Below are positions 1 through 50,563 of a DNA stretch of 64,000 nucleotides, piece by piece. Numbering within the stretch: the first letter of the stretch is position 1; every line of letters starts with the position of its first letter. The DNA lies in the NCBI GenBank assembly GCA_050175015.1, contig JBFXJJ010000010.1:9987-73986 (forward strand), read 5' to 3'. The notes under the pieces are model-generated. The model searched no databases and was not told the origin of the DNA. It worked only from the letters and a program-made list of their open reading frames with translations. Origin of the DNA: Alphaproteobacteria bacterium (lineage in GTDB: Bacteria; Pseudomonadota; Alphaproteobacteria; JBFXJJ01). Made by a program: the position numbers and the translations under genes.

Positions 1-497
1 GCGTTATTGGCTGAGTAAATTCCGTTGTTATTGCCAAGTTTGGTATGAAGTTTTTCAATATCATTTTTTGTTATTGAGGTTATTTTTTTATAATCCCAAT
101 TTTTAAAATATCGATTGTAAATATCTATATTTTCTTGCCAAGTTCTTTGTTTGGTATGCTTTTTAGAATATTTTTCAATATATTCATCAAAAAGCTCTTG
201 TAATATAAGCTCTTCCTTAAGTCTGTTCTTTTCAATATTAGGATTTTTACCTTCACTAAGCTGAGAAATAATTTCTAAAGCTTTAGCTCGAGCTTTGATT
301 AAAGTTATTTCCGTATTTTTGCCAATAGTGATTTTTAAAGGTCTGCCATTATGCTTTTTATAAATGACATAGGTTTTAACCCCTTTATCGGTAACTCGGC
401 ATATTAAACAGCTAACTTTATCATCTTTAACTGAATATCTTTTGCCCTCTTTAGCTGGCTTTAGTCTTTCAATATAACTTTCTGTAAAATTTGGCAT
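1..497 (-). CDS. Tyrosine recombinase / phage (P4-type) integrase, N-terminal part; the gene runs off the left edge
   Basis: ATG at 497 on the minus strand, preceded by GAGGA. The translation MPNFTESYIERLKPAKEGKRYSVKDDKVSCLICRVTDKGVKTYVIYKKHNGRPLKITIGKNTEITLIKARAKALEIISQLSEGKNPNIEK matches the integrase arm-type DNA-binding N-domain (pattern LTDxxIxxLKP...Y.v.D..v.GL.lrV...G.KtW...Y). It is not in the ORF track because it is open at the window edge. Confidence 0.7.
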   Translation of the reverse strand, partial: MPNFTESYIERLKPAKEGKRYSVKDDKVSCLICRVTDKGVKTYVIYKKHNGRPLKITIGKNTEITLIKARAKALEIISQLSEGKNPNIEKNRLKEELILQELFDEYIEKYSKKHTKQRTWQENIDIYNRYFKNWDYKKITSITKNDIEKLHTKLGNNNGIYSANN

Positions 498-513
498 TTT
501 AAAAAATCCTCAA

Positions 514-600
514 ACTGGGGCTACTTTTTTAAATTTAATTTCAACAAAAGCGTTTTTTTAGAAGGGTTTTATAAAAATCTCGGGGCTACTCTGGGGCTAC
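514..600. repeat. Three copies of GGGGCTAC (517-524, 582-589, 593-600; the last two 11 bp apart) between the integrase start and the tRNA-like core; candidate integrase arm-type binding sites
   Basis: Exact octamer repeats read directly from the sequence (ACTGGGGCTAC, TCTCGGGGCTAC, TCTGGGGCTAC). They lie in the 240-bp int-att spacer. Confidence 0.45.
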
Positions 601-738
601 CTTTTTGATAAAAAACCATCAAAAACGACTTGTTGTTATAAAACCAAGAATCAGGCAAAAGTGTTGAATTGTCAAGGGTTATAATGGCATATAAAAAACC
701 GTCAAACCTAAAACCAGCAAATTTGTAATCAGAGGGTC

Positions 739-766
739 GGGAGTTCAAGTCTCTTAGCCGGCACCA
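739..766 (+). other. tRNA 3'-end-like fragment (T-arm GGGAG-TTCAAGT-CTCTT, acceptor 3' strand AGCCGGC, discriminator A, CCA); putative att core or direct repeat of an integrated element
   Basis: Canonical T-loop TTCAAGT and a ...GCCGGCACCA end are present. No matching 5' acceptor strand (GCCGGCT), D-arm or anticodon arm lies upstream, so this is not an intact tRNA gene. Confidence 0.5.
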
Positions 767-778
767 GAATTCTCAAGG

Positions 779-816
779 GTTTCAAAGTTTTTGCTTTGAA
801 ACTTTTTTGTTTTTTT
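779..816 (+). terminator. Rho-independent terminator immediately after the tRNA-like 3' end
   Basis: Hairpin GTTTCAAAG / loop TTTTTG / CTTTGAAAC, followed by TTTTTTGTTTTTTT. Confidence 0.6.
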
Positions 817-862: not shown

Positions 863-1309
863 TTACGGTAACGAGCTATAAGCTTTAATTAACATCATAA
901 TCATATTTTTAAAATTAGAAATTGTATTATAACATTCAGGACAAAAGAATGATGCTAAGTAGTAGCCCAAAAAGACAATAGGAATATTCCCAGGAAGAGT
1001 TGTATAGTAAAGGAAAATACTGACAAGCGTATAAAACCATAAAAAGTAATAGAGTATTTTTTTTATTTTTTGGTTCTTGTTATATTTTAGTGTTTGATAA
1101 TATGAGAAGATTAACACAGAGAAAAACAGTGTATTTCTGCAAAAATAAAACATATTACGGTATTCTCTTGAAGAAAAAGTGTCGTATCTTTCTAAAAAGC
1201 ATAAAAGAACTCCCAAACAAATTTGTAATAAGATGAAATAAACAAAGAAAACACGCCAAAAACCAGTGTTGATATCTATTTTTAAAATATTTTTGATGTC
1301 GTTTTTCAT
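863..1309 (-). CDS. Hypothetical small polytopic membrane protein (148 aa)
   Basis: ORF with several hydrophobic segments and no recognisable family. It sits in a very AT-rich accessory segment. Confidence 0.35.
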   Translation of the reverse strand: MKNDIKNILKIDINTGFWRVFFVYFILLQICLGVLLCFLERYDTFSSREYRNMFYFCRNTLFFSVLIFSYYQTLKYNKNQKIKKILYYFLWFYTLVSIFLYYTTLPGNIPIVFLGYYLASFFCPECYNTISNFKNMIMMLIKAYSSLP

Positions 1310-1352
1310 GAAAAACCCCGTTTTTTCAATAAGTATTGTTTTGTATTTATAT

Positions 1353-1814
1353 TTATCTTAAGTCCGAAGATAAGTTATGCTTTGCCATGTGTAACTCAAT
1401 TATTTTTGGGCGGTATAATGCTGAGCCAATATGGACTAATGGTGTTAAACTTCTAAAATATGAAATAGAAAGCATTGAAAGTATATAGTATAAAATTAAT
1501 GAGTATTTTATTGCATTCCTTGTTTTGTCTGAGTTTACCTTCTTTAATGATTTAAATACAAAAACAAAGCTATATATGGTATATATAACAACAATATATA
1601 AGGGAATGTAGATAAAGATGAAATAAAGTGTAAAATAAAGATAAAGGTTATTTTTAACAATATTATAAAAGCTATCAATGTTGTTCATTAAAATAAAATC
1701 TATTGTCTGTTTGAATATCCCAACAGCAGTTTGCCCTAAAATAAACACATAAAAAATTTGGGTAAAAATATTCTTATTTATATGTCTGCATATATTACTG
1801 AAAAGTGTATTCAT
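1353..1814 (-). CDS. Hypothetical small polytopic membrane protein (153 aa)
   Basis: Hydrophobic, Tyr/Ile-rich ORF lying 44 nt upstream of and co-oriented with 863..1309. It could be a fragment of a larger membrane-protein gene. Confidence 0.35.
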   Translation of the reverse strand: MNTLFSNICRHINKNIFTQIFYVFILGQTAVGIFKQTIDFILMNNIDSFYNIVKNNLYLYFTLYFIFIYIPLYIVVIYTIYSFVFVFKSLKKVNSDKTRNAIKYSLILYYILSMLSISYFRSLTPLVHIGSALYRPKIIELHMAKHNLSSDLR

Positions 1815-1909
1815 TCGATATCATTCCAATGATTAATTTTTTTATTTTCTAAATTAATAAATAGCACAAAATAGCACAGAGTTTAATTTTTAAAACAGTA
1901 TTGTTAGAG

Positions 1910-2527
1910 TTATTGAATGTTGTTTATTATAGCATCACATAGAGCACTATCTTTTCCCTTTTTTATTTTTTTATAGCAATTGTCGAAAATACATAAATTA
2001 TAGAGCCTGTTATAATTATCAATTAAATAAGTATACGAAACTTTTTGTTCGTTAATAATATAATTCTGGTTATTAAACTGAAAAAAATTAAATTCGGAAT
2101 TTAAAGGTAAAGACAATTCCTTCTTTTCAATAGAATATGATGGAAAATAGGCGTTCTTTATTTTTCTTCCGTTGAATTTACTGGCGATACCATTTAAATC
2201 TTTTTCGCTGTTTATAGTCAAACTTGATTGTTTTAGATAGTTTTTAACCTCGTCGATATTGTCAAAATAAACATACCCTAAACGTTCATTCTTGTTGTTT
2301 AACTTTATAATATGAAGCAGTTCTTCTTTGCCATCGTTATTAAAATCAATAAAAATAATTTTATCATCAGTATTAGCAATCTTTGCCATTTGAAACTGGG
2401 TAATTTCGTTGTCCCATTGATACGAATTAAAAGTAGAGGCATTTTGATTGTTATGTTTTGCTGTTGTGTAACCAATAAAACCACAAATTGCCACAAGTAA
2501 AAAAAGAAAAATTACTCTGCTGTTCAT
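1910..2527 (-). CDS. Secreted protein with one copy of the ~150-aa DxNxDG repeat unit (205 aa)
   Basis: N-terminal signal peptide MNSRVIFLFLLVAICGFIGYTTA. It contains WDNEITQFQMAKI...IDFNNDGKEELLHI...KNYLKQSSLTINSEKD...KFNGRKI, the same unit that is repeated in the upstream 919-aa protein. The ATGA start/stop overlap with that gene at 2524-2527 suggests translational coupling. Confidence 0.55.
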   Translation of the reverse strand: MNSRVIFLFLLVAICGFIGYTTAKHNNQNASTFNSYQWDNEITQFQMAKIANTDDKIIFIDFNNDGKEELLHIIKLNNKNERLGYVYFDNIDEVKNYLKQSSLTINSEKDLNGIASKFNGRKIKNAYFPSYSIEKKELSLPLNSEFNFFQFNNQNYIINEQKVSYTYLIDNYNRLYNLCIFDNCYKKIKKGKDSALCDAIINNIQ

Positions 2528-5283
2528 TTGTTATTTACTTTTGTTTGAGATTCTTCAGTTTTTTCCAACTTATCTAAATCTGTACCGCAGAGTTCCTTTA
2601 CTTTTTGTTTGAGGTAAGTTTCAAGCTGTTTTTTAGTATTTTCTGATAAATTAGAATTTTTTACTCTAGCTTTTATTTCATCAGCAAAGCTTTCGTCATA
2701 TAAATAACTATCTTCATGAACGTGGTTTTTAGATATAATCTTAGCCGTGTATAACCTTATGATATTAAGCGGTAAATTTTCATTTTTATATAAGTAAGGA
2801 TAAAACGAGCAAATTTCATGGGATTTATCATCTTTTATTAAATATATATCATCGTAATAAGTATCAAAAAAATAGTTGGTTTTATTATATTTAAAGAATG
2901 AAAAATCATTCCAGTTAAATGGTTGTTTGTTATTCAAGAACTGTTCTGAGATACTGTTTTTTAAATTAGATTTTTTAACGAATCTAATAAAATTATCTTT
3001 ATTTTTTACAATACTGTTTGGTTCCTTTAGAAAAGCATTACTTAGACTTATATCATCTAAATAGATGTCATAACCAATGTTTCCATAAGGTTCATCAATG
3101 GCATCATAAACCCAAGCAATTTCTTGTTCTAGTTCTTCGTGCCTGTTTTTATTTTTTATTGGAAACCTTTCATGGATAAAGATATCACTATTAAATTTCT
3201 GGGCTATTTTCACAAAATCATCTTTGTTTTTAAGAACTAAGTTTGGTTGTTTTAAATATTTTTTAACTTCAGAAATGTTTTTAGAAAAGATTGCAGTATC
3301 AATATTATTATTAATTCCATCTAGAGAATATATTCCTGTAGTATAGATTAACTCATTGTTGTTGTCGTTATTAAAATCAAGCTCAATAATTTTAGATAAA
3401 TTCGCAGCCTCAATTAACATTTGGGCAATGTTATTGTCCCATTCATACGGTTCAATTTTGAAGTTTTGAGAGATATAATTATCAAAATCATTAATAATAT
3501 TTGTTTCGACTGAAAAACCATAATAACTTGCTACATTTTTACAGAAAATATTGTCTTCTCCTTGTTGGGGAATATTGGTTGACCCAACAAAACTGCAAAT
3601 TTCTTTGGCTGAGTTTTTTTCGATTAGAAATACCTGTGTTTGCCAACGATTTTTATTAAGAAAATAAATTTTGCTATCAGAATAAAAAAAGTTAGGTTCA
3701 TCTATTGGCAAAAACCAACGTTCTTTCTTTTCATCAAAATAGGGGGTTCCTGAGGGAGTTATTTCTTTGCCGTTAAATTTTTCTGCAATGTTAAAAAAAT
3801 CATTTTGATTATTTATAACAAAGCTTTTTTGTTTTAATTGTTTGATGATATCGTCAATATTACTGTAATAAATTACAGCTTTTCTCGTTGATATAGAATT
3901 TTCTTTGGCATCTAGGTTATAATTTTTAGAAATATGTATTAACTCTTTTTGCCCATCATTGTTGAAATCAATTAAAATAACCCCATCTAAAGAATCATCG
4001 ATAGGAGGTGTTTGCATTTGAGTTATTTTATGATCCCAATTATATTTCTTTATTCTATGATATTGACCAACATCATTTAAATCAAAATCGCTTGGTATTT
4101 TATTTACGATTTTTTTGGCTTTGACAAGACCATTGTTTTTATTTTTAGCATTCCAGTTGTAGTTTGGGTAAGTTTTAACATTGCTTGGATAGTTTTTTAT
4201 CTTTTCGTTTTTTACCAACAATCCATATGAATTAGCTGCAACATGGCAAACAAGGTTTTCATATCCTGACGTTAGTTCAAAATCAGGCAAAGAAAAACGG
4301 CACAACCTTTTTGCTTGGTTGTTTTCAATTAAGAAAACATTTGTTTTTTCGCTCAATATGTAAGTTTTATTATGGAACTCAAAAAATACAAGATCAATTA
4401 ACGGTAAGGCCCAATCTTGATTTTTCTCTGAGAAAAAAGGAGCATAAGCAAAGTTTATTTCTTTGCCATTAAATTTTTTAACAATAGCATCAAAGTTAGA
4501 TTTATTTTTTAAGGTTAGATTTGGTTGTTTTAAGTATGCTTTGATTGCGCTAATATTTTGAGTGAAAAAGGCGGTATAACCTTTGTAAGTATCATATACT
4601 TCCTGTCCATAATCTTTTAAGTAATAAAATCCTGTAGTATAAATTAGTTCTTTTTTGCCATCATTATTAAAGTCAACTTCAATTATTTTAGATGGTTCTA
4701 GTTTAGCCAGTTGTATTTGCGCAATGTTATTGTCCCAAGACATTTCTTCTATTAGTTTTGGTTTTATGAAATTTTCTTTGTCAGTAAGAAAGCTGTGTTT
4801 CTCGGCAAATGCATAACAAACAGGTTCATTAAAGCCATAGTTAAGAAATAAAGGAGAGTTTGAATTATAATACCATTCATCATAAGTTTTTTTAGGATAA
4901 TTTTTTGCTAGTAACCAAGATGAACCATCTACAATTATTGATTTTGCAAAATCGCCTCTATTACAACTCATAGGAGTGCCATAGTTTTGGTAAAAAGCAT
5001 TTTTATGTAGTTTAGCGCACATAATTCTACATTGTTCTTCCTCTTTTGACTTTGGAGAAAACCCTAAGTAACAATTATGGTTGCATCTAACTTCGCCTTC
5101 TTTGTAACTGAAACCTGTTTCTAATGTAAAATCATTTTTTATTTTATTCAGGCTAGGAATCTTGCTCCAATCTGGATGATACTTCAATTTAGAGAAAACA
5201 GAGTTGCCTTCATCTGCTATGCTAATCGAAGCTGCCAGGGTTAAAAATGTTATGATAAATGCAATAAATTTAAGTGATTTCAT
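2524..5283 (-). CDS. Large secreted protein (919 aa): signal peptide, Cys-rich N-domain, then four tandem ~150-aa repeat units each carrying a DFNNDGKKELI (DxNxDG, Ca-binding-loop-like) motif
   Basis: Signal peptide MKSLKFIAFIITFLTLAASISIA. The repeat units begin WDNNIAQIQLAKLEPSKIIEVDFNNDGKKELIYTTG; WDHKITQMQTPPIDDSLDGVILIDFNNDGQKELIHIS; WDNNIAQMLIEAANLSKIIELDFNNDNNNELIYTTG; a fourth is degenerate. Each unit is followed by KxYLKQPNLxLKNK...KFNGKEI. Confidence 0.6.
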   Translation of the reverse strand: MKSLKFIAFIITFLTLAASISIADEGNSVFSKLKYHPDWSKIPSLNKIKNDFTLETGFSYKEGEVRCNHNCYLGFSPKSKEEEQCRIMCAKLHKNAFYQNYGTPMSCNRGDFAKSIIVDGSSWLLAKNYPKKTYDEWYYNSNSPLFLNYGFNEPVCYAFAEKHSFLTDKENFIKPKLIEEMSWDNNIAQIQLAKLEPSKIIEVDFNNDGKKELIYTTGFYYLKDYGQEVYDTYKGYTAFFTQNISAIKAYLKQPNLTLKNKSNFDAIVKKFNGKEINFAYAPFFSEKNQDWALPLIDLVFFEFHNKTYILSEKTNVFLIENNQAKRLCRFSLPDFELTSGYENLVCHVAANSYGLLVKNEKIKNYPSNVKTYPNYNWNAKNKNNGLVKAKKIVNKIPSDFDLNDVGQYHRIKKYNWDHKITQMQTPPIDDSLDGVILIDFNNDGQKELIHISKNYNLDAKENSISTRKAVIYYSNIDDIIKQLKQKSFVINNQNDFFNIAEKFNGKEITPSGTPYFDEKKERWFLPIDEPNFFYSDSKIYFLNKNRWQTQVFLIEKNSAKEICSFVGSTNIPQQGEDNIFCKNVASYYGFSVETNIINDFDNYISQNFKIEPYEWDNNIAQMLIEAANLSKIIELDFNNDNNNELIYTTGIYSLDGINNNIDTAIFSKNISEVKKYLKQPNLVLKNKDDFVKIAQKFNSDIFIHERFPIKNKNRHEELEQEIAWVYDAIDEPYGNIGYDIYLDDISLSNAFLKEPNSIVKNKDNFIRFVKKSNLKNSISEQFLNNKQPFNWNDFSFFKYNKTNYFFDTYYDDIYLIKDDKSHEICSFYPYLYKNENLPLNIIRLYTAKIISKNHVHEDSYLYDESFADEIKARVKNSNLSENTKKQLETYLKQKVKELCGTDLDKLEKTEESQTKVNNK

Positions 5284-5286
5284 GTT

Positions 5287-6399
5287 TTATCTTGATCTAA
5301 GTTTTTTTATATCAAAAAAGTTTTTTTTGGGTGCTATTTCTAAAATTCTATCATATCCGTTTTCCCTTTCTGGTATATGTTTAGGATTCTCTTTATCAAA
5401 ATCATTAAATGTCTTAGGAAAGTTATTTGAAATATAATTAATAGTTGATTTTCTTAAGCCTACATTTTTGTCGGTTTGTATAAATGTTGATAGATCTTCT
5501 ATGTATATACAGTCTTCAATTAAAAAATTTTTTAAAAAAACTGAGACATCTACATCTTTTGAAAAATTAAATTTATCTTTTTGGGGCTGATTTTGTTTAA
5601 GAAACTTAACCATATTTTCTTCGTAGTAATCTTTTCTTAAGTCACTTAACCATATATTTTTTTTATTAACTTCTTTTTTTCCCTCATTATTTAGATTTGC
5701 TTTATCGGCACCACTATATTCATACCATTCCTTGAAAGCACTTTTTGTTGCTTGCATTGTTCCGTTGCTAATTTCTCTTTCAAAAGCCTTGAAAATATCA
5801 CTTGATGAACTTTCTTTGCGAGCATCAAAATAGACACTAAGATTACTTTCTTTTTTTAGTTCCCAAGTGGCAAGAGCAGAAAATGCTGTAGCATCAGCTT
5901 CCATTACTCGGTCTTTTATAATCCAAGCTCTTATACTGTCTTTTGTTAATTCAATTTCTATTCCTTTTCTATTTTGCCAAAAATGGCGTATTTCATGTGC
6001 AAAAGTTGCAGGCATATTGACCCCATAACTATCTATGTCACTTTTGAATTTGCTATAAGCATCTCCGTATCTTTGTCCGTAAGTTTCTGGGGTGTCGTCT
6101 TTTCCATATTTTTCAATAATGCGAGGAATTATAATTTTTTTATTTACTGAATCAAAAACTCCAAAATTTTTTGTTTCTTTTTTATTGCTATCAGGATTGT
6201 TTTTGTAAACCTCATCACTGAAAACAACCTTTATTTTATCTACCCCTATTTCTTTGATTAGACGTCGGATAGATTTACTTAAGAGAGTATTATAAAACTG
6301 AGAGTGATAAATAATCGCATATTGATCTAGTTTTTGGCACCAAAGATCATTATACACTTCAGGAGAATCGGTCTCTATATCAGGTGTTCTGATATACAT
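5287..6399 (-). CDS. Zincin-like protein with HExxH (AHEIRHF) and a downstream Glu (MEADATAF); putative metallopeptidase-fold protein with no signal peptide (370 aa)
   Basis: The HEIRH motif and a Glu about 30 residues downstream resemble the gluzincin arrangement. The stop lies 3 nt before the start of the 919-aa gene, which indicates an operon. The family could not be assigned from sequence alone. Confidence 0.45.
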   Translation of the reverse strand: MYIRTPDIETDSPEVYNDLWCQKLDQYAIIYHSQFYNTLLSKSIRRLIKEIGVDKIKVVFSDEVYKNNPDSNKKETKNFGVFDSVNKKIIIPRIIEKYGKDDTPETYGQRYGDAYSKFKSDIDSYGVNMPATFAHEIRHFWQNRKGIEIELTKDSIRAWIIKDRVMEADATAFSALATWELKKESNLSVYFDARKESSSSDIFKAFEREISNGTMQATKSAFKEWYEYSGADKANLNNEGKKEVNKKNIWLSDLRKDYYEENMVKFLKQNQPQKDKFNFSKDVDVSVFLKNFLIEDCIYIEDLSTFIQTDKNVGLRKSTINYISNNFPKTFNDFDKENPKHIPERENGYDRILEIAPKKNFFDIKKLRSR

Positions 6400-6770
6400 T
6401 GGGCCTCCTTCTGTGGTAAGAGCATCTATATTTCTTGTGCTTCTATAGCGTCGACATCGTTCTCTATTTGCAAGTCATGCTTGCTAGCAAGGCTGTTCTT
6501 CCTTCCTGAAAGAAATTCTTTAATGCCACCTTTGGCTTTAAATTGTTCAACTTTAGATGATTTAACCATAATAAAAAATCCTGTTGTTTATTTTTAAAAA
6601 AATAAATCTGATTGGAATAATAACGTTTCAATTTTATAGGCTGTTTTTTTGAACATATTTTAATTATAAGGATGTTTTGTTGCAAGTTATAGTTTTGTAA
6701 CAAATATTATTACAGCTAATTTGTTTAAAGAAACTGCCAGTTACAATGATTACAATAAAATTAAGTGATT

Positions 6771-6944
6771 TCATTGGCCGTTTCTGCTTGCTTGAGGTTT
6801 TTTCATTCTTTCTAACTTATCCCAATCTGTGCCGCAGAGTTTCTTGACTTTTTGTTTGAGATAGGTTTCAAGCTGTTTTTTAGTATTTTCTAATAAATTA
6901 GAATTTTTTACTCTAGCTTTTATTTCATATACAAAGCATATCAT
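6771..6944 (-). pseudogene. Truncated duplicate of the 3' end of the 919-aa repeat-protein gene (58-aa remnant ORF)
   Basis: 6814-6940 is about 92% identical to 2566-2690, the C-terminal coding end of 2524..5283. The remnant translates as ...IKARVKNSNLLENTKKQLETYLKQKVKKLCGTDWDKLE, against the full gene's ...IKARVKNSNLSENTKKQLETYLKQKVKELCGTDLDKLE. Confidence 0.6.
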
Positions 6945-7260
6945 TTGGTTTCAATCATAAAAAAGAAACGCAAATATATTTGCATTTAAACGTTTTTTGT
7001 TCTAATAACGCTTAAGTGTTGTAATATTTGTGTTTAGAATAATTTTGCCGCAAATTTAAAGGCTGTATAAGCTAAGGTTATGTTTGGCTAAGTATTTAAA
7101 AAAATGTTTTCTTCTTTATTATGAAGAAAAACGGAATAGGAAAAAATAATAAATTATAGCAAATATTCAAATTTATTATTGACCATAATTAAAAATAGCA
7201 ATAATCAAAAAAACAATAAACTGCTTTTTTAGTAGGTTTTTTATGGAGAAATAAAAGAAT

Positions 7261-11803: not shown

Positions 11804-11826
11804 AAATAAATAAGCCTTATTTATTT
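11804..11826. terminator. Perfect AT-rich inverted repeat (AAATAAATAAG CC TTATTTATTT) between the convergent gltB and 11821..12657 genes; likely a bidirectional terminator
   Basis: 11-bp perfect stem seen directly. It overlaps the stop codon of the minus-strand gene. Confidence 0.4.
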
Positions 11827-12657
11827 TCCATTATTTTTAAAAACACAAAATGGCTCTGGATATTTTATACTTCCATAGTTGCTATTTATAACACAGCCCC
11901 AATTCCCACCATCAAAAGCATTAATTTCATCACTAATTGATATATTTGAATGATCACCGATAATTCGAAACAAACTATCTTTAAAATAAAAATAGAAATT
12001 CTTCTCAAAACTTCGTGAAAGACTTCTAATACATACTGTTTTTTCTTTATTTGTTGGATATAATCTACCAAAGACAGCCATTATAATTTTAAACGCAACT
12101 TTTTCTTTAGAATCGTACGGTTTTTTTAAAATAAAATCAGCAATATAAAATTTTTTTATTTTTTGAAATTCTGAAATGTAAGCATTCTTTAAATATGGTT
12201 TTTTATTGAAATCTGTGTCAGGATACATTTGTTCTAAAGAAGGCATTAATTGCTCTGCTTTAGCTCTTGTTATCTCTTGCCACTCTGGTTGAGAAAAATC
12301 TTTATATTCATCTGGAATATAAAGTTTATTAATAGAAATTTGATTATAAATCGTAGGTATAAAGTTATGATTTTCAGGTAACTCTAGTATTTCTTTAAAT
12401 TTTTCGCACAATTCAGGTTTATGATTAGTTACCAATTCAAAATGAACGGGTTCTCCTTTTTGAACGGGTGGTATAGGTTTAGGATTATCTACTATGGTAT
12501 CATTAAAATTGTTAGCTAAAACAGATTGTTCTTTTTTCATAATAGCCTCGTTATCTTCAGCTATTTTTTTGTTAACTAAAGCCTCTTCTGCTCCTGCATT
12601 TATTATGAAAGAAAACAAAAGGAAGCAACTAAAGTTAAATAAAAAGATTTTTTTCAT
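11821..12657 (-). CDS. Hypothetical secreted protein (278 aa)
   Basis: Signal peptide MKKIFLFNFSCFLLFSFIINAGAEE. No recognisable family. Confidence 0.5.
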   Translation of the reverse strand: MKKIFLFNFSCFLLFSFIINAGAEEALVNKKIAEDNEAIMKKEQSVLANNFNDTIVDNPKPIPPVQKGEPVHFELVTNHKPELCEKFKEILELPENHNFIPTIYNQISINKLYIPDEYKDFSQPEWQEITRAKAEQLMPSLEQMYPDTDFNKKPYLKNAYISEFQKIKKFYIADFILKKPYDSKEKVAFKIIMAVFGRLYPTNKEKTVCIRSLSRSFEKNFYFYFKDSLFRIIGDHSNISISDEINAFDGGNWGCVINSNYGSIKYPEPFCVFKNNGK

Positions 12658-14898: not shown

Positions 14899-15076
14899 AT
14901 TTTTTTCCTAAAAGTTTTTTGAATATTGTTAATTTTTTATATTCTTTTAGCGTAGTTATTTCAATATCAAAAAAGTTTTTTGGGATAAAATGAATTGATT
15001 AATAAAAGTTATTGCCATTCTTTGATAAGTATGGAAAAAAAGATAATGCCTTGTTTCACCAAGATAGCTTTGAAAA

Positions 15077-16879
15077 ATGTTTGAAACCTTAAAAAAAACG
15101 CTTGCAATATTAACTCCACCAGAAAAAAGAAAAGCCTTAATTCTTCTTCTTTTAATGATTTTTGTAGCTGTTTTTGAGATGATAAGTGTGGTTTCTATAA
15201 TGCCTTTTTTATCTGTTATTGCAAAACCCGAGATTATAGAAACGAATAAATATTTAAAATTTACTTACAATTATTTGAAATTTGAAAATCAAAAAGATTT
15301 TTTATATTTTCTAGGTGGTACGGTTTTTCTTCTGCTTGTTTTAGGTAATATTATAAAATCGCTATATATTTGGGCAGAAGTCAGATTTATTAATATGCGA
15401 GGGCATGATATTAGTAAAAGGCTATTAAAAAAATATTTAGAAAAAACATATATCTTTTTTGTAAATCGTAATAGTGGAGATTTAGCAAGGAATGTTCTTG
15501 ATGAAGTTAATAAAATAATGGTTTGTTCTCTAAAACCATTTATGAGTATAGCTTCTCAGGCAATTACTAGTTTATTCGTTGTTTCAATAATCATTGCTTC
15601 TGACCCGTTTTTAGCGGCCACAATGGCGTTCATAATAGGTTTTATTTATTTCGTAATATATAGGGCATTGAAAAAAAAGCTTCTACGGTTAGGTGAAGGG
15701 TATTTTAATTCAAATAAAGAACGTTATATTACAATTAATGAAATATTTGGAGGAATAAAGGATTTAAAGTTATTAGGTTTAGAGAAAACCTTCCTCAAAA
15801 TTTATGAAAAACCATCACGGAAAAGAGCTGATTATTACTGTTTTCATCAGTTGGCAGCCTTAATACCTCAATATATATTAGAGATATTAGCAATGGGAAG
15901 TGTTCTTATTGCAACTTTTTATCTTATGTCTATAAAAAATGATATAGGTTATTTTTTACCAATTTTAGGACTTTATGCATATGCAGGTAAAAAAATAGTT
16001 CCTGCTATGCAGGCTATTTTTGGTGCTATCACTTTAATCAAATTTAATGGAACTGTTGTCGATAATATCTTTAAAGAATTAAATTTAGAAGAGAGTGATA
16101 AGAAGAATATAAAAATAGATGATATTTTTGGTGAAGTAAAAAATATAGAATTAAAAAACTTAAAATTTCAATATCCGTCAAATAAAAAACTCATTATTGA
16201 TGATTTGAATCTAAGTATAAAAGCCAAAACAACAGTTGGATTTGCTGGTTCTACTGGTTCTGGAAAAACTACTTTAGTTGATATAATTCTTGGGCTTTTA
16301 AGACCTACTAGTGGGGATTTAATTGTTAATGGGCAAAAGATAACAGGTGAAAGCATTCGGTCGTGGCAGTCTAAACTGGGCTATATTCCTCAATTTATTT
16401 TTTTAACAGATGATACTGTTGCTAAAAATATAGCGTTTGGAATTCCTGATGATGAAATAAATATGGATATAGTTAAAGATGTTGCAGAAAAAGCGCAAAT
16501 CAAAGATTTTATAGAGCAGCTTCCAGATAAATATAATACGATAGTTGGAGAAAGAGGGGTCAAATTTTCAGGAGGACAACGTCAAAGAATAGGTATAGCA
16601 AGGGCGTTGTATCGAGATCCAGAAGTATTGATACTTGATGAAGCAACATCAGCCTTGGATAATATAACAGAACGAAGTGTTATGGCTGCAATTCGAAAAT
16701 TATCAGGTTTAAAAACGCTGATTTTGATTGCGCATAGATTAACGACGCTTAAAAATGCGGATATAATTCACTTTATAGAAAATGGAAAAATTATTTCTTC
16801 AGGTAATTATGACGAAATGTTAGCAAATACACAATTCGCTGATTTGGTTAGAGCTGCACAGGAAAAGGATGAATTTTAA
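15077..16879 (+). CDS. Fused TMD-NBD ABC exporter (MsbA/PglK-like); candidate lipid-linked glycan flippase or exporter
   Basis: N-terminal 6-TM domain; Walker A GSTGSGKTT; signature LSGGQRQRIGIARAL; Walker B ILDEATSALD. Located at the head of the glycan locus. Confidence 0.85.
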   Translation: MFETLKKTLAILTPPEKRKALILLLLMIFVAVFEMISVVSIMPFLSVIAKPEIIETNKYLKFTYNYLKFENQKDFLYFLGGTVFLLLVLGNIIKSLYIWAEVRFINMRGHDISKRLLKKYLEKTYIFFVNRNSGDLARNVLDEVNKIMVCSLKPFMSIASQAITSLFVVSIIIASDPFLAATMAFIIGFIYFVIYRALKKKLLRLGEGYFNSNKERYITINEIFGGIKDLKLLGLEKTFLKIYEKPSRKRADYYCFHQLAALIPQYILEILAMGSVLIATFYLMSIKNDIGYFLPILGLYAYAGKKIVPAMQAIFGAITLIKFNGTVVDNIFKELNLEESDKKNIKIDDIFGEVKNIELKNLKFQYPSNKKLIIDDLNLSIKAKTTVGFAGSTGSGKTTLVDIILGLLRPTSGDLIVNGQKITGESIRSWQSKLGYIPQFIFLTDDTVAKNIAFGIPDDEINMDIVKDVAEKAQIKDFIEQLPDKYNTIVGERGVKFSGGQRQRIGIARALYRDPEVLILDEATSALDNITERSVMAAIRKLSGLKTLILIAHRLTTLKNADIIHFIENGKIISSGNYDEMLANTQFADLVRAAQEKDEF

Positions 16880-17638
16880 ATGAAAGATGCCATTAAGAAA
16901 TTCTTACCTAAGAAAGTAAAAAAAATTATAAAAAAGCTGCTTAGCTTAAGATATTTGTATAGGTTTTTTACAAATTATAAGCAATTTGTTAATAACGGCG
17001 GAAAAATTACAAAACTTTGCCCTGTTCTTAGCAATTTTAACAGTTCTGCGGGATTAGATAAAGGACATTATTTTCATCAAGATTTGCTAGTGGCATCATA
17101 TATTAATAAAGCTAATCCTGAAAGGCATATAGATATAGGCTCTCGTATAGACGGTTTTGTTGCTCATGTTGCGTCTTTCCGTGAAATAGAGGTGATGGAT
17201 ATTCGAGAACTTAATCCGTTGAAACATAAAAATATAAAATTTATTCAATCAGATTTAATGCAATATGATGATAAATATAATGATGCCACGGACTCAATAT
17301 CTTGCCTGCATGCAATAGAACATTTTGGATTAGGACGTTATGGCGATCCCATAAATCCTAATGGTCATATCGCAGGTTTTAAGAATATTTTGAAAATGCT
17401 AAAGAAAAATGGAATGCTTTATATTAGTTTTCCAATAGGGAAAGAAAATCAAGTTTTGTTTAATATTCATAGAATATTTGATCCCAAAGATATTTTTAAA
17501 TGGAGCGATGAAAAGCTCGAACTTCAAAAATTTGACTTCGTTGATGATAATGGCGATTTGCATATAGATTTTCCGATTAAAGAAAAAAATATCGTTGCTA
17601 ATTTTGGTCTGGGTATCTATAGTTTTTGTAAAAAATGA
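16880..17638 (+). CDS. Putative SAM-dependent methyltransferase (DUF268-like)
   Basis: HYFHQDLLVASYI...HIDIGSRIDGFVAHVASF...VMDIREL resembles the DUF268 / class I methyltransferase fold. Its start abuts the ABC exporter stop. Confidence 0.5.
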   Translation: MKDAIKKFLPKKVKKIIKKLLSLRYLYRFFTNYKQFVNNGGKITKLCPVLSNFNSSAGLDKGHYFHQDLLVASYINKANPERHIDIGSRIDGFVAHVASFREIEVMDIRELNPLKHKNIKFIQSDLMQYDDKYNDATDSISCLHAIEHFGLGRYGDPINPNGHIAGFKNILKMLKKNGMLYISFPIGKENQVLFNIHRIFDPKDIFKWSDEKLELQKFDFVDDNGDLHIDFPIKEKNIVANFGLGIYSFCKK

Positions 17639-17689
17639 TTGGTTAATAAAAAGATTTAATTTATTTATAATGTCAAACATATTAGGTAT

Positions 17690-18307
17690 ATGATGCTAAA
17701 ATATATAAAGAAAATGCTTCCTAAAAGGTTTAAGAATTATTTGAAAAATAAGATTACTTATTTTTTTTGGGTTAGTAAAGGAAAGCCTAATCCTCCTCAT
17801 CATATAATAAAACAGAAAAAAATTCTAAGATTGCAAAAAAGACAAGGAAACAACGTGTTCGTAGAAACTGGAACTTATTTTGGTGATATGGTTTTTGCAG
17901 TAAAAGATACGTTTAAACAAATTTATACTGTAGAGTTAAGTAAAGATTTGTATGACTTAGCCGTGGAAAGATTTAAGAAAGATACGCATATTAATTTATT
18001 AAATGGAGATAGCGGAGAGGTTTTAAAGGATCTTGTTAAAAAGATAGAAGAACCTGCAATTTTTTGGTTGGACGGTCATTATTCTGGTGGCGAGACGGCA
18101 AAAGGGAACGTAGATACACCTATAGTAGAAGAACTAAAACATATTTTTTCTTCAGAATTAAAGCATACAATTCTTATCGATGATGCTAGGTGTTTTGGTA
18201 AAAACGATGGTTATCCAACAATAGAAGAGTTAGAAAAAATAGTTTTGGAAAGCAGGCAGGGTGCTAAAATCAAAGTTGAATCTGACATTATAGAAATAAC
18301 CTATTGA
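17690..18307 (+). CDS. Class I SAM-dependent methyltransferase (Methyltransf_24 / TylF-CmcI-like)
   Basis: VFVETGTYFGDMV ... FWLDGHYSGGET ... ILIDDARCFG motifs. Confidence 0.55.
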   Translation: MMLKYIKKMLPKRFKNYLKNKITYFFWVSKGKPNPPHHIIKQKKILRLQKRQGNNVFVETGTYFGDMVFAVKDTFKQIYTVELSKDLYDLAVERFKKDTHINLLNGDSGEVLKDLVKKIEEPAIFWLDGHYSGGETAKGNVDTPIVEELKHIFSSELKHTILIDDARCFGKNDGYPTIEELEKIVLESRQGAKIKVESDIIEITY

Positions 18308-19191
18308 AAAAAGTAATGTTACCTTTTTATAAAATTTTAAATGTCTTTAAAAATCCTGATGTGGGAAATGTTGCTGTTGTTTTTACAAATGGAGCAGGTA
18401 ACAATATTTTCCAATATATTTATGCTAGATTATTAGCCGATCATTATGGGCTAAATTTATCTTGTGATGGGCTTGATATTTTAGATGTTACTAAAACACA
18501 TTATAGAAAAAACAAAAAATTAAAAACGATAAAAATAGGCTTGGAAGAAACTGATTTTCAACAATATTTCAATATTAAAGAACCTTGTAATTTTATTGTT
18601 CATACATATCCTGAGGATTATAGGGTTTATAAGCCACACCTTGAAAAAATACGAAGTTGGTTTGATGAGGTTCCTAAAACTAATGAAGAAGACTTGGTTT
18701 TTCATTTAAGATTAGGAGATAGGCTTTTGTATAAAAGCAGCTATGAAGCTTCTATGAAAGTTGAAGCAGAAGAGTTTGTTGAGGCGTTTGAAATGTTTGA
18801 TTTTAAACGCCTACATATTGTAACTGATATGAATGTTTGGCATAGAGTAACTCCTAAAGATGTAGAAAAAATGGTTTTTCATATAAATGTTCCTGATAAT
18901 TTAAAAGTAGATTCAAGAGTATCGGCAGAATATTTTAACTCACTTTATGATGCGTTTTCTAAATTTGACCCTATAGTTAGAATAGGAAATAGCGTAAAAG
19001 ATGATTTTAATTATATGAGATCGTTTGATAAAATAATGTTTCAGCATGGAACGTTATCTTGGTGGGCGGCTGCTTTAAGTAAGGCATCTAAGGTTGGTTT
19101 TTTTGCACCTTGGAGATGCAATAAAAGAAATATGGGGCAAACAGATTTTGATGGCTGGTTCGGCTGGGGAACTAATCGTATAAAGTCATAG
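18304..19191 (+). CDS. Putative GT11-family alpha-1,2-fucosyltransferase-like glycosyltransferase
   Basis: VFHLRLGDRL resembles GT11 motif I (HxRRGDY) and GTLSWWAAAL resembles the C-terminal S(T)FSWWAAYL motif. It is adjacent to the GDP-fucose synthesis genes. Confidence 0.5.
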   Translation: MKKVMLPFYKILNVFKNPDVGNVAVVFTNGAGNNIFQYIYARLLADHYGLNLSCDGLDILDVTKTHYRKNKKLKTIKIGLEETDFQQYFNIKEPCNFIVHTYPEDYRVYKPHLEKIRSWFDEVPKTNEEDLVFHLRLGDRLLYKSSYEASMKVEAEEFVEAFEMFDFKRLHIVTDMNVWHRVTPKDVEKMVFHINVPDNLKVDSRVSAEYFNSLYDAFSKFDPIVRIGNSVKDDFNYMRSFDKIMFQHGTLSWWAAALSKASKVGFFAPWRCNKRNMGQTDFDGWFGWGTNRIKS

Positions 19192-19203
19192 TGAGTATTT
19201 GAT

Positions 19204-20316
19204 ATGGAATATATCTGGATAGGTTGTGGATTTGGTCATGAACCAGATGAAAATTTTAGGTTGTTGTTGGACAATGGAGTTTGCTGGCAACTAAAGGATA
19301 GAACTGACAATACAATGTTCCGCTATCTGGAAAAAAAAGAATGTTTTAAAGCTAACATTAAAGATTTTAAAACTAAAAATGAGAATATTTTTTATAATAA
19401 TACGTGTATAGATGAAATTTTAATTGGTTGTAAGTATGTTTTTTTTACTATTAAGCCTGAATTAGCTACAAAAAAGACATTAGCAAATGCAATAGCTATT
19501 GAAAAACATATTAATAACAAAAAACTTCCAATAAAAATTATTAATTCTCCATCTTCGTTTTCTTATCTTTGCCATAAAGATGAGTTTTATCAAGTAATGC
19601 CTCAAGATGATGTTCCAAAATATCATATAATTAATAAAATATCAGATATTGATAATATTAAATTTTCCTATCCCTTTATATTAAAGGCAAATAATTTTTC
19701 TAGTGGAAAGGGGACAAGTCTTGTATCTTCTAGAAAACAAGCAATTAAATTTTTTATAAAAATGAAGTTTGTTAAATGTTTTGGAGGATATATTTCATTT
19801 TTCAGAAATCTTATTAGAGCAAAATTTTCATACAGAGTAAAACTTGCTAATTTTATTCCAGATAAAATTATAGCGGTCGAATATTTTAATACCAAACAAA
19901 CTGAAAATTTTTATATGACGGGGCGGGTTTTTTTTCTAGGAAATAATTTATATTATGCGTATCCTCATATTTCAGCAGATGATTGGTGTGTTCATACGGA
20001 TCAGGCAAAAAACTATCTTCCTAAAAATATTTATAAATTAGCTTGCGAACGTATAAATAAAGCTGTTGTAGCTAATAAAGATAAGTTTTTAAAAGCTCAG
20101 AAAAGACTAAATATAAGTACATTAGCGTTTGATTTTCTTATAACAAAAGAAAATAGAATTAAGATTTTAGAACCAGAACTAAAGTATGGATTAGATAAAA
20201 ACTTTTTAAAGGGACAAGAAGAAGTGTATGCACTTGATCAAAAACATATTGATTGGATACAAGAAAGTATAAAGGCTAAACCAATAGTTTCGTTCGATAG
20301 TTTGTTCTTGCAATAA
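19204..20316 (+). CDS. Hypothetical protein, possibly ATP-grasp fold
   Basis: YPFILKANNFSSGKGTSLVSS resembles the ATP-grasp central segment. The assignment is weak. Confidence 0.35.
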   Translation: MEYIWIGCGFGHEPDENFRLLLDNGVCWQLKDRTDNTMFRYLEKKECFKANIKDFKTKNENIFYNNTCIDEILIGCKYVFFTIKPELATKKTLANAIAIEKHINNKKLPIKIINSPSSFSYLCHKDEFYQVMPQDDVPKYHIINKISDIDNIKFSYPFILKANNFSSGKGTSLVSSRKQAIKFFIKMKFVKCFGGYISFFRNLIRAKFSYRVKLANFIPDKIIAVEYFNTKQTENFYMTGRVFFLGNNLYYAYPHISADDWCVHTDQAKNYLPKNIYKLACERINKAVVANKDKFLKAQKRLNISTLAFDFLITKENRIKILEPELKYGLDKNFLKGQEEVYALDQKHIDWIQESIKAKPIVSFDSLFLQ

Positions 20317-20360
20317 GATATGTTCTTTAGCCAAGCATTTAAAGTTAGGAAAAATTTAAT

Positions 20361-21020
20361 ATGAAATTTGATACGAATTTAACGTACGATACTAGAGAGA
20401 ATAAATCTAAGTATATCTGGGAAAAATATCAAACAATCTTAAAAGGAAAGATATTAGATGTTGGTGCAGATGAATGCGTTTTAAAAAAACATCTACCTAA
20501 AGATGTTGAATATACAGGAATAGGTTTAGGGGGCTCAGTTGATATTGAAATTAATTTAGAAAAGGAAGAAATTCCTTTTAAGAAAGATGAATTTGATTGT
20601 GTATTATGTTTAGAAACGCTTGAGCATTTAGACAATTTTCATGCTGTTTTTGATAAGCTTTGCAGCATTACTAATAAATATTTGGTTGTTTCCTTACCTA
20701 ATCCTTGGCAATCCTTCATAAATTGCCTTAATAAAGGTAATTATAAGGGGACAACTCTTCCTATGAAATTTTATAATTTGCCTATTGATAAGCCTATAGA
20801 TAGACACAAGTGGTTTTATGGATTGCATGAAGCTGAAAATTTTTTGGTTGAATGTGGGAAAAGAAACAGTATGAAAGTTGTTCAAATCGATAGAATTTCT
20901 CCTAAAGGAATAAGAACATTTATTTTAAGAAGTTTTTTATCTTTGGTTGTTCATAAAGATATAAAGGTGAAAGATCTTTTAGATAGTACGTTATGGGTTG
21001 TTTTGTGTAAAGAAGAGTAG
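20361..21020 (+). CDS. Class I SAM-dependent methyltransferase
   Basis: ILDVGADECVL (motif I) and CLETLEHLDNF. Confidence 0.6.
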   Translation: MKFDTNLTYDTRENKSKYIWEKYQTILKGKILDVGADECVLKKHLPKDVEYTGIGLGGSVDIEINLEKEEIPFKKDEFDCVLCLETLEHLDNFHAVFDKLCSITNKYLVVSLPNPWQSFINCLNKGNYKGTTLPMKFYNLPIDKPIDRHKWFYGLHEAENFLVECGKRNSMKVVQIDRISPKGIRTFILRSFLSLVVHKDIKVKDLLDSTLWVVLCKEE

Positions 21021-21025
21021 TTATT

Positions 21026-25075: not shown

Positions 25076-25093
25076 CTCAAATAATTCCTTTTC

Positions 25094-27546: not shown

Positions 27547-27548
27547 TT

Positions 27549-50487: not shown

Positions 50488-50563
50488 TGGCGACCCCAAG
50501 GGGATTTGAACCCCTGTTACCGCCGTGAAAGGGCGATGTCCTAGGCCTCTAGACGATGGGGTC
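50488..50563 (-). tRNA. tRNA-Glu (anticodon UUC)
   Basis: The reverse complement reads GACCCCATCGTCTAGAGGCCTAGGACATCGCCCTTTCACGGCGGTAACAGGGGTTCAAATCCCCTTGGGGTCGCCA. It has a cloverleaf, CUUUCAC anticodon loop and CCA end, and is close to the canonical bacterial tRNA-Glu. Confidence 0.95.

What the first reader, a model, noticed from the sequence alone, without database searches (positions are those of the whole stretch)
863..6950. Very AT-rich accessory segment bounded by the att-like site and a gene-remnant duplication
Between the tRNA-like core/terminator (about 820) and the gltB upstream region (about 6950) the DNA is visibly more AT-rich than the housekeeping genes (gltB, rpsB-lpxD block). 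It encodes only lineage-specific proteins: two small hydrophobic proteins, a zincin-like protein and DxNxDG-repeat secreted proteins. It ends with a truncated duplicate (6771-6944) of the 3' end of the 919-aa gene. The composition, the content and the remnant at the border indicate horizontally acquired or rapidly evolving DNA shaped by recombination between paralogous repeat-protein genes.
Basis: seen in the sequence. Interest (0 to 1): 0.55.

Follow-up and report, generated by a model that had tools for sequence, protein, structure and literature searches.

The report
Genome-specific secreted-protein operon, not island
The AT-rich stretch is a five-gene operon that pairs a predicted zinc protease with secreted proteins from a family seen so far in only this one uncultured alphaproteobacterium; it has grown and shrunk by local gene duplication and deletion, and it is not the mobile island that the neighbouring tRNA fragment suggests.

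Summary
The segment has 28.0% GC against 34.0% for the rest of the window. All five ORFs are on the minus strand. A 168-nt copy of the 3' end of the 919-aa gene (84% identical) lies at 6770-6937.

The AT-richness is not a foreign signature:
- 83% of the coding GC deficit is at codon positions 1 and 2 (FYNKI-rich proteins).
- Synonymous codon bias falls within the core-gene range.
- A 20-kb polysaccharide cluster in the same window is almost as AT-rich.

The att-like site is a real 3' half of tRNA-Thr(UGU). The integrase and its putative arm repeats lie on its 5' side, so the integrated element is to the left. The segment sits on the chromosomal side, and no second att copy exists in the window.

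The segment encodes a DUF6782 HExxH protein next to a Sec-exported protein built from an orphan ~180-aa module. A second copy of this gene pair occurs on another contig of the same MAG. Among 1.84 billion representative proteins, every true relative of the module carries this MAG's locus-tag prefix.

The remnant is a fossil junction of two tandem 919-like genes, which points to birth-and-death turnover. Synteny could not be tested because no close relatives exist. The finding is ordinary as an "island" and mildly interesting as an orphan family.

The parts
3..497 (-). N-terminal 165 codons of a tyrosine integrase; the gene runs off the window start. It is a neighbour, not part of the segment.
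   Evidence: Pfam Arm-DNA-bind_3 E 1.2e-10. PHROG 1 integrase E 4.9e-10. Translation. Not found in the protein database, not even as a self-hit.
517..600 (+). Three copies of GGGGCTAC between the integrase start and the tRNA fragment; putative arm-type integrase-binding sites (inferred).
   Evidence: All 3 occurrences in the 64-kb window are here. 0.34 are expected by chance, and 0 of 100 shuffles reach 3.
724..768 (+). 3' half of a tRNA-Thr(UGU), from anticodon loop to CCA; a displaced tDNA fragment (attR-type).
   Evidence: Rfam tRNA model positions 33-71, 18.6 bits, E 0.034, 5'-truncated. No complete tRNA here. Unique in the window.
775..816 (+). Terminator-like hairpin with T-run directly after the tRNA fragment; probably the original tRNA terminator.
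   Evidence: 14-pair stem followed by TTGTTTTTTT.
863..1309 (-). 148-aa hydrophobic ORF, last in the gene row; coding status uncertain.
   Evidence: ORF. One strong transmembrane-like segment. No family hits. Called in the Logan assembly but absent from NCBI proteins. GC1 is lower than GC3. Chance of a stop-free run of this length is about 1e-6.
1353..1814 (-). 153-aa hydrophobic ORF; coding status uncertain.
   Evidence: No detectable similarity to the 148-aa ORF (E 1.8).
1910..2527 (-). 205-aa exported protein: N-terminal hydrophobic signal plus one copy of the ~180-aa module.
   Evidence: 34-41% identical to the modules of the 919-aa protein. Its start overlaps the stop of the 919-aa gene (ATGA). 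Module model has pLDDT 76.5.
2524..5283 (-). 919-aa exported protein: signal peptide, Cys-containing N-domain, 3.5 modules and a conserved C-terminal tail.
   Evidence: Approximate module positions are 4228-4776, 3529-4071 and 2734-3486. FG-GAP_3 scores only 22.1 bits, below the cutoff of 26.9.
5287..6399 (-). 370-aa DUF6782 putative metallopeptidase, first gene of the row. HEIRH at residues 135-139, with E167 27 residues downstream. No signal peptide; basic C-terminus KKLRSR.
   Evidence: Pfam PF20573 E 6.9e-25. Invariant H135/E136/H139/E167 in alignment with the paralogue. No TM or signal segment.
6740..6774 (-). Copy of the first 35 nt (start codon and signal-peptide start) of a 919-like gene. 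The reading frame stops after about 36 codons.
   Evidence: 83% identical to 5249-5283 (family D6). Sequence.
6770..6937 (-). Remnant of the last ~55 codons of a 919-like gene, truncated at its 5' side next to the gltB upstream region.
   Evidence: 84% nt identity to 2523-2690 (family D2). 72% aa identity, E 2e-17.

Best explanation
The segment is a native, fast-turning-over operon of an uncultured AT-rich alphaproteobacterium, not an att-bounded island.

Gene order on the minus strand:
- a cytoplasmic-looking DUF6782 zincin (HExxH plus a downstream Glu);
- a 919-aa Sec-exported protein made of an N-domain, 3.5 copies of an orphan ~180-aa module with one DxNxDG loop each, and a conserved C-terminal tail;
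- a 205-aa single-module protein;
- two small hydrophobic ORFs.

The pairing of zincin and module protein is a conserved two-gene cassette, present at a second locus of the same MAG. I infer that the two proteins act together in an extracytoplasmic or host- or surface-directed function. The zincin may process the module proteins or be delivered alongside them. The module proteins are probably disulfide-stabilised, with a putative calcium-binding loop.

The locus evolves by tandem duplication, unequal crossing-over inside and between module genes, and deletion. The remnant at 6740-6937 is the leftover junction of two tandem 919-like genes.

The low GC arises because weakly constrained, lineage-specific proteins drift towards AT-rich codons (Phe, Tyr, Asn, Lys, Ile). 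Their silent sites sit at the intergenic level.

The tRNA-Thr 3' fragment and integrase mark the right end of a separate integrated element that lies to the left of position ~770.

Shown: the anatomy, the paralogy, the second cassette, the restriction to one MAG, and the composition breakdown. Inferred: operon status, export, functional coupling, and native origin.
For: Anatomy
- The five ORFs share one strand with gaps of 3, -4, 95 and 43 nt.
- DUF6782 is above Pfam's threshold.
- The module repeats are 36-43% identical, with 30 invariant columns.

Second cassette
- On Logan contig L020 from the same run, a 413-aa DUF6782 (38% identical, E 3e-75) sits 8 nt upstream of the 439-aa single-module homologue P0003.

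Family restriction
- A profile search of 1.84 billion representatives finds only P0003, P0004 and P0006 as full-module relatives.
- All of them, and the 919-aa protein, carry the NCBI locus-tag prefix AB7U85, on contigs of 111, 213 and 89.6 kb.

Selection on the family
- Six cysteines, GSSW.L and YLYDES...YLKxKxKxxCxxDLDK are invariant across the family.
- The 17-aa tail motif is identical in two paralogues despite about 9 synonymous DNA differences.

Turnover
- The remnant and gene-start copy are documented.

Composition
- GC1/GC2/GC3 are 0.340/0.261/0.238 in the segment and 0.480/0.363/0.289 in the core, so 83% of the deficit is at positions 1 and 2.
- The FYNKI fraction is 0.40-0.49 against 0.22-0.35.
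- Codon bias B against the core is 0.162; random core subsets give a mean of 0.130 and a maximum of 0.208.
- Delta* is 56-59, and other windows reach up to 65.7.
- GC at fourfold sites is 0.211, close to the polysaccharide cluster (0.222) and at the low end of the intergenic range (0.21-0.33).

att geometry
- See, and PMC4383910.
Against: - GC at fourfold sites is lower than the core mean (0.211 against 0.300), and the segment is the most AT-rich 6-kb stretch of the window. Some compositional distinctness therefore remains.
- The locus lies directly beside a tRNA integration hot spot.
- The second cassette (L020) sits beside an integrase C-terminal fragment and hipBA remnants. This hints at an association with mobile DNA.
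- The third family locus (AB7U85_02870/02875) has no detectable DUF6782 of this subfamily in the database, so the pairing is seen at 2 of 3 loci.
- No relatives are available to show that the segment is ancestral.
- Function is unsupported by any characterised homologue. The DUF6782 model failed (pLDDT 36), and the module model has no PDB or BFVD neighbour.
Confidence: 0.62

Rival explanations
1. The segment is an old, largely ameliorated genomic island that entered at the same tRNA-Thr, forming a tandem array with the integrase-bearing element. Its distal att repeat and its own integrase were later lost, perhaps in the deletion that created the remnant next to gltB.
For: - It lies immediately 3' of a tDNA fragment.
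- It has the lowest GC of the window and lower fourfold-site GC than the core.
- All of its content is orphan.
- The paralogous cassette on L020 is next to an integrase fragment and toxin-antitoxin remnants.
- Tandem islands at one tDNA are known (PMC4383910).
Against: - There is no second core copy anywhere in the window, with alignment scores at null level.
- There is no integrase inside the segment.
- Synonymous codon bias and dinucleotide signature fall within the window's own spread.
- The family is known only from this genome, at three loci, so no donor exists.
- A terminator-like hairpin directly after the CCA looks like the native tRNA flank.
Confidence: 0.18
2. The operon is a toxin-immunity or polymorphic-effector locus. 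The DUF6782 zincin would be an exported toxin or effector, with its basic C-terminus as a secretion signal. The module proteins or the small membrane ORFs would protect the producer, and the remnant would be an orphan displaced C-terminal cassette of the kind seen at polymorphic toxin loci.
For: - The protein is a zincin without a signal peptide, and both paralogues end in a basic tail, KKLRSR and VKIKSR.
- The gene row is tightly packed and ends in small hydrophobic ORFs.
- A displaced 3'-end remnant is present.
Against: - The remnant copies the module protein, not the zincin.
- There is no match to PADLOC, PHROGs or NCBIfam toxin or immunity models.
- No secretion-system genes are seen in the window (the window was only partly annotated).
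- The module proteins are exported, whereas the zincin looks cytoplasmic. That is the wrong compartment for a simple immunity pair.
Confidence: 0.1
3. The arrangement is an assembly or binning artefact: a chimeric MAG contig joined at the short repeat, or foreign DNA binned with the alphaproteobacterial core genes.
For: - Independent Logan contigs of the same run break at 694, 2614/2652 and 6776/6899. These positions are at the tRNA fragment and at the exact block shared by the 919 tail and the remnant.
Against: - The exact shared block is only about 39 nt, shorter than a read.
- L021 links the tRNA fragment to the 205-aa gene and the 919 tail.
- L019 links the 919 body to DUF6782 and the gene-start copy.
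- L018 links the head of the remnant to gltB.
- The remnant differs from the 919 tail at 27 of 168 positions, so it is a separate sequence.
- Composition at silent sites equals that of the neighbouring polysaccharide cluster.
Confidence: 0.03

Closest known systems
tRNA-gene-integrated genomic islands (Islander-type: tDNA, integrase, displaced 3' tDNA fragment)
   Same: A genuine 3' tDNA fragment that starts at the anticodon loop (the common 'A' sublocation), an adjacent P4-like integrase N-terminus, and repeated short motifs between them. All of these sit at the left border of the segment.
   Different: The segment lies on the 3' (chromosomal) side of the fragment. It holds no integrase, has no second repeat, and shows no distinct synonymous codon usage. 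The island these features define is the DNA to the left of the window.
Pfam DUF6782 (PF20573), putative metallopeptidase family
   Same: The 370-aa protein and its 413-aa paralogue score 88 and 85 bits (cutoff 27) and carry HExxH with a conserved Glu 27 residues downstream.
   Different: Only the central ~120 residues match (profile positions 90-190 of 241). The family has no characterised member, no paper in the searched library and no solved structure. Linkage to the module protein has not been described anywhere I could search.
FG-GAP / VCBS calcium-binding beta-propeller repeat proteins
   Same: The DxNxDGxxEL loop matches the calcium-binding turn of FG-GAP repeats. Weak profile hits to true FG-GAP proteins cover only that loop.
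   Different: There is one loop per ~180-aa module rather than one per ~60-aa blade. The Pfam score is below threshold. The predicted module (beta-strands plus three helices) has no significant structural neighbour in the PDB.
Lineage-specific paralogous surface or secreted protein families of AT-rich host-associated bacteria that evolve by duplication and decay (comparison from general knowledge, not tested here)
   Same: Multi-copy, genome-restricted, exported, repeat-expanded, accompanied by pseudogene fragments, and more AT-rich than core genes.
   Different: No sequence relationship to any such family. The lifestyle of this MAG is unknown. There is no evidence that the remnant serves as a donor for gene conversion.

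Membership tests
tDNA-integrated genomic island | The island lies between an intact tDNA and its displaced 3' fragment, in the same orientation, with the fragment downstream. | tested here: not met
   The fragment is at 724-768 on the + strand and the segment is on its 3' side. The only complete tRNA in the window is tRNA-Glu at 50488-50563 on the minus strand. No second copy of the core was found. Rule taken from PMC4383910.
tDNA-integrated genomic island | A tyrosine integrase gene lies inside the island. | tested here: not met
   The only integrase is at 3-497 on the minus strand, on the other side of the fragment. None of the five segment proteins matches a recombinase.
tDNA-integrated genomic island | Composition or codon usage is distinct from the host genome. 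| tested here: inconclusive
   GC is 28.0% against 34.0%, and fourfold-site GC is 0.211 against 0.300 in the core. However, 83% of the deficit is at codon positions 1 and 2. B of 0.162 lies within the random core subsets, whose maximum is 0.208. Delta* is within the window's range. Only 64 kb of the genome was available.
tDNA-integrated genomic island | The island is absent from the same site in close relatives. | not testable with these tools
   The best gltB relatives are 58-65% identical in the GTDB representatives and JGI metagenomes. In five of those distant genomes, tRNA-Leu(CAG) rather than tRNA-Thr lies upstream of gltB.
Pfam DUF6782 (PF20573) | Score above the curated gathering threshold. 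| tested here: met
   88.1 bits against a cutoff of 27, E 6.9e-25. The paralogue scores 85.3 bits.
Zincin metallopeptidase (HExxH) | An HExxH motif plus a third zinc ligand, conserved among homologues. | tested here: met
   H135, E136, H139 and E167 are invariant in the two-sequence alignment. Only two sequences were aligned, and catalysis was not tested.
FG-GAP / VCBS repeat proteins | Repeats of ~60 aa that score above the Pfam threshold and form propeller blades. | tested here: not met
   FG-GAP_3 scores 22.1 bits, below the 26.9 cutoff, and no single stretch passes. There is one loop per ~180 aa. No significant fold match was found.
Known anti-phage defence or phage protein families | A match to PADLOC or PHROGs models. 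| tested here: not met
   There are no PADLOC hits. PHROG hits for the five proteins are only at chance level (E 0.004 or weaker).

The most novel reading that the evidence does not exclude
The DUF6782 zincin and the module protein form a previously undescribed two-component secreted system. The module (N-domain, ~180-aa unit with one calcium-type loop, selected C-terminal tail) would be a new fold. The system would have arisen and expanded within a single deep-branching, AT-rich alphaproteobacterial lineage, and would be a candidate host-interaction or surface-remodelling machine.
Probability: 0.25. Interest if true: 0.45.

Novelty: new member of a known kind. Interest (0 to 1): 0.3.

Why it matters
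As a putative genomic island, the finding matters little. It shows that low GC beside a tRNA fragment can mislead: here the deficit is mainly in amino-acid composition, and the att geometry points away from the segment.

The useful residue has three parts:
- A first genomic association for DUF6782, a family with no literature in the searched library. It is linked twice to an exported orphan protein.
- A protein family found only in one MAG among 1.84 billion representative proteins, with a confidently predicted module that has no neighbour in the PDB.
- A clear small example of birth-and-death evolution, with a junction fossil of tandem genes.

If the organism proves to be host-associated, these would be candidate interaction proteins.

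Tried and rejected
Synteny with relatives
- gltB was scanned against the GTDB representative genomes and JGI metagenomes.

Word-index protein searches
- The 370-aa zincin returned only itself.
- The two-paralogue profile returned only the two paralogues.
- The integrase N-terminus returned nothing, not even itself. I therefore could not extend the sequence to the left or check whether the integrase is intact.

Other collection searches
- A metagenome scan with the family alignment gave 600 pattern hits, none of them real.
- tblastn of the zincin against plasmids and phages gave no match.
- The zincin has no solved-structure relative; the best E-value was 0.071 and spurious.
- Literature searches for DUF6782, PF20573 and SRR27751817 returned zero papers.

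Structure
- The DUF6782 model was unusable (pLDDT 36.2).
- The module model was good (pLDDT 76.5), but Foldseek found nothing in the PDB (best E 0.22) or BFVD (best E 0.056).

Context of other family members
- P0004 and P0006 are not on record in the contig index.

Ideas rejected
- A two-piece tmRNA at 570-770: ARAGORN and Rfam find none.
- The two hydrophobic ORFs as paralogues: BLASTP E 1.8.
- Gene conversion as the cause of the identical C-tail motif: the DNA differs at synonymous sites.


Full report
**1. Observation**

The window has 33.4% GC. The segment 863-6950 has 28.0% GC, and the remainder to its right has 34.0%. In 6-kb windows it is the lowest value. However, 15001-21000 and 29001-35000 reach 29.2%, and the orphan ORF at 11821-12657 is 27.1%. 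The region 15-34.5 kb is a surface-polysaccharide cluster (ABC transporter, methyltransferases, GT4/GT2 glycosyltransferases, PGA_cap, TupA-like ATP-grasp, MBOAT). AT-rich stretches of this kind therefore make up about a third of the window.

The listed genes exist, all on the minus strand:
- 370 aa at 5287-6399
- 919 aa at 2524-5283
- 205 aa at 1910-2527
- 153 aa at 1353-1814
- 148 aa at 863-1309

The gaps between them are 3, -4 (an ATGA overlap), 95 and 43 nt.

The duplicate is real. 6770-6937 is 84% identical to 2523-2690 over 168 nt. At protein level it is 72% identical over 54 residues, E 2e-17.

**2. Composition is not a foreign signature**

- Pooled GC1/GC2/GC3 are 0.340/0.261/0.238 in the segment and 0.480/0.363/0.289 in 29 core genes. 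So 83% of the coding deficit lies at codon positions 1 and 2.
- Phe+Tyr+Asn+Lys+Ile make up 40-49% of the segment's proteins, against 22-35% in core proteins.
- Karlin's codon bias of the pooled segment relative to the core is 0.162. Random core subsets of the same size give a mean of 0.130 and a maximum of 0.208. The polysaccharide cluster gives 0.147.
- The dinucleotide signature distance is 56-59. Other 6-kb windows reach 65.7.
- One difference remains. Fourfold-site GC is 0.211, against 0.300 in the core. That value equals the polysaccharide cluster (0.222) and lies at the low end of the intergenic range (0.21-0.33).

I read this as silent sites at mutational equilibrium in weakly expressed genes. 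I do not read it as recent import.

**3. The left border**

- The Rfam tRNA model aligns 724-763 as a 5'-truncated tRNA (positions 33-71, 18.6 bits, E 0.034), beginning at a UGU anticodon. With the CCA, the fragment ends at 768.
- There is no complete tRNA or tmRNA there.
- A 14-pair hairpin with a T-run follows at 775-816.
- To the left, on the minus strand, lie the first 165 codons of an integrase with an Arm-DNA-bind_3 domain.
- Between the integrase and the fragment are the only three GGGGCTAC octamers of the window, against 0.34 expected.
- In tDNA islands, the displaced 3' fragment lies downstream of the regenerated tDNA, with the island and its integrase in between (PMC4383910).

The integrated element is therefore left of about 770 and runs off the window. 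The segment is on the chromosomal side. No second copy of the core exists near 6950 or anywhere else in the window. The integrase fragment found no database entry, not even itself. I could not tell whether it is intact, and I could not extend leftwards.

**4. What the segment encodes**

The zincin:
- The 370-aa protein is a DUF6782 member (88 bits, cutoff 27).
- It has HEIRH and a conserved Glu 27 residues downstream.
- It has no signal peptide.

The module proteins:
- The 919-aa protein has a signal peptide, a ~165-aa N-domain, 3.5 copies of a ~180-aa module and a C-terminal tail. The third module carries a duplicated half.
- The module motifs are W-D..I.Q, I..DFNNDG..EL, NI...LKQ, KFNG, FF, Y, LI and C.F.
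- The 205-aa protein is a signal sequence plus one module.
- Pfam sees only a sub-threshold FG-GAP-like loop.
- A model of the module built from seven copies reached pLDDT 76.5 and pTM 0.75. It has no significant Foldseek neighbour in the PDB or BFVD.

The two hydrophobic ORFs:
- They are unlikely to be chance ORFs (about 1e-6 each).
- They have GC1 lower than GC3, no homologues, and no NCBI protein record. Their status is open.

**5. A conserved cassette and a genome-restricted family**

- A profile of the module was searched against 1.84 billion representative proteins. It found the 205-aa protein itself and three real relatives (P0003, P0004, P0006). All other hits cover only the calcium-type loop of true FG-GAP proteins.
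- The relatives share the architecture. They have a signal peptide or lipobox, the N-domain with GSSW.L, one module and the tail V..D.YLYDES..EIK...YLKxKxKxxCxxDLDK, with six invariant cysteines.
- P0003 is encoded on another contig of the same sequencing run, 8 nt downstream of a second DUF6782 gene (413 aa, 38% identical, E 3e-75).
- All four long family members carry the locus-tag prefix AB7U85. They therefore belong to one MAG, on three contigs.
- Neither the zincin subfamily nor the module family was found in plasmids, phages, JGI metagenomes or the distant alphaproteobacterial loci.
- The 17-residue tail motif is identical in the 919-aa protein and P0003, while the DNA differs at about nine synonymous sites. 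That indicates purifying selection rather than gene conversion.

**6. The remnant**

Reading the minus strand from 6937:
- first, the last ~55 codons of a 919-like gene;
- then the same AATGA stop/start overlap that joins the 919-aa and 205-aa genes;
- then a copy of the first 35 nt of the 919-aa gene (MKSLNFIVII..., against MKSLKFIAFI...), which runs into a stop after about 36 codons.

This is the junction of two tandem 919-like genes. Everything upstream of it and most of the second gene have been deleted. It lies upstream of the present DUF6782 gene, so the locus once held at least one more unit. The internal module repeats and the half-module duplication point the same way. The locus evolves by duplication, unequal crossing-over and deletion.

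Independent Logan contigs anchor both ends of the remnant. L018 links its head to gltB, and L019 links its tail to DUF6782. These contigs break only at the ~39-nt exact block, so misassembly is unlikely.

**7. Mechanism and limits**

I commit to the following reading, with about 0.6 confidence for the evolutionary part. The segment is a native, lineage-specific operon. Its core is a zincin and exported-module-protein pair acting outside the cytoplasm. The locus evolves by birth and death, and its AT-richness is due to weakly constrained protein composition.

The biochemical role is inferred only from linkage, export signals, conserved cysteines and the calcium-type loop. I would give any specific version of it no more than about 0.3.

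An old tandem island that has lost its marks cannot be excluded (about 0.18). The locus abuts an integration hot spot, and the second cassette lies next to an integrase fragment and hipBA remnants.

**8. Verdict**

The 'att-bounded horizontally acquired' alternative is not supported. Synteny remains untestable with the collections at hand. The finding is ordinary as a genomic feature and modestly interesting as an orphan protein family with a first genomic partner for DUF6782.

Noticed in passing
window 1-770: This is the right end of an integrated element that continues off the window. It comprises a P4-like integrase N-terminus (3-497, minus strand), three GGGGCTAC repeats (517-600) and a tRNA-Thr(UGU) 3' half (724-768). 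The integrase fragment has no entry in the protein database, not even itself, so it may be a pseudogene or cut by a contig end.
   Followed up: partly
window 15077-34478: A ~20-kb surface-polysaccharide cluster (ABC exporter, several methyltransferases, GT4/GT2 glycosyltransferases, PGA_cap, TupA-like ATP-grasp, MBOAT, and five ORFs with no Pfam hit). Its GC is 27-34% and its fourfold-site GC is 0.22, almost as AT-rich as the segment under study.
   Followed up: partly
window 11821-12657 (minus strand): A 278-aa orphan ORF between gltB and two sugar epimerase/dehydratase genes. GC is 27.1% and GC3 is 0.17. It has no significant match in Pfam, NCBIfam, PADLOC or PHROGs.
   Followed up: no
L020 1-1270 (Logan contig of SRR27751817; NCBI MAG contig of 111 kb): Upstream of the second DUF6782/module cassette lie a HipB-like HTH gene, a 96-aa HipA N-terminal fragment (Couple_hipA) and, on the opposite strand (816-950), a 44-aa ORF resembling the C-terminal box II of a tyrosine recombinase. 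This looks like mobile-element debris next to the paralogous cassette.
   Followed up: no
window 5287-5310 and L020 2485-2508: Both DUF6782 paralogues end in a short basic tail (…FFDIKKLRSR and …LNFVKIKSR). It might be a C-terminal secretion signal. Nothing in the window identifies a secretion system.
   Followed up: no
window 863-1814: The two hydrophobic ORFs are the only ones of 54 examined in which GC1 is not above GC3 (0.228/0.302 and 0.247/0.266). They were called in the Logan assembly but have no NCBI protein record.
   Followed up: partly
NCBI proteins MGD9637984.1 and MGD9637985.1 (AB7U85_02870/02875, contig of 213 kb): Two adjacent 637/638-aa lipobox-bearing family members with an extra, nearly identical ~130-aa C-terminal extension (about 110 aa beyond the end of the 919-aa protein). 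Their genomic context could not be fetched, and no DUF6782 of this subfamily is on record beside them.
   Followed up: partly
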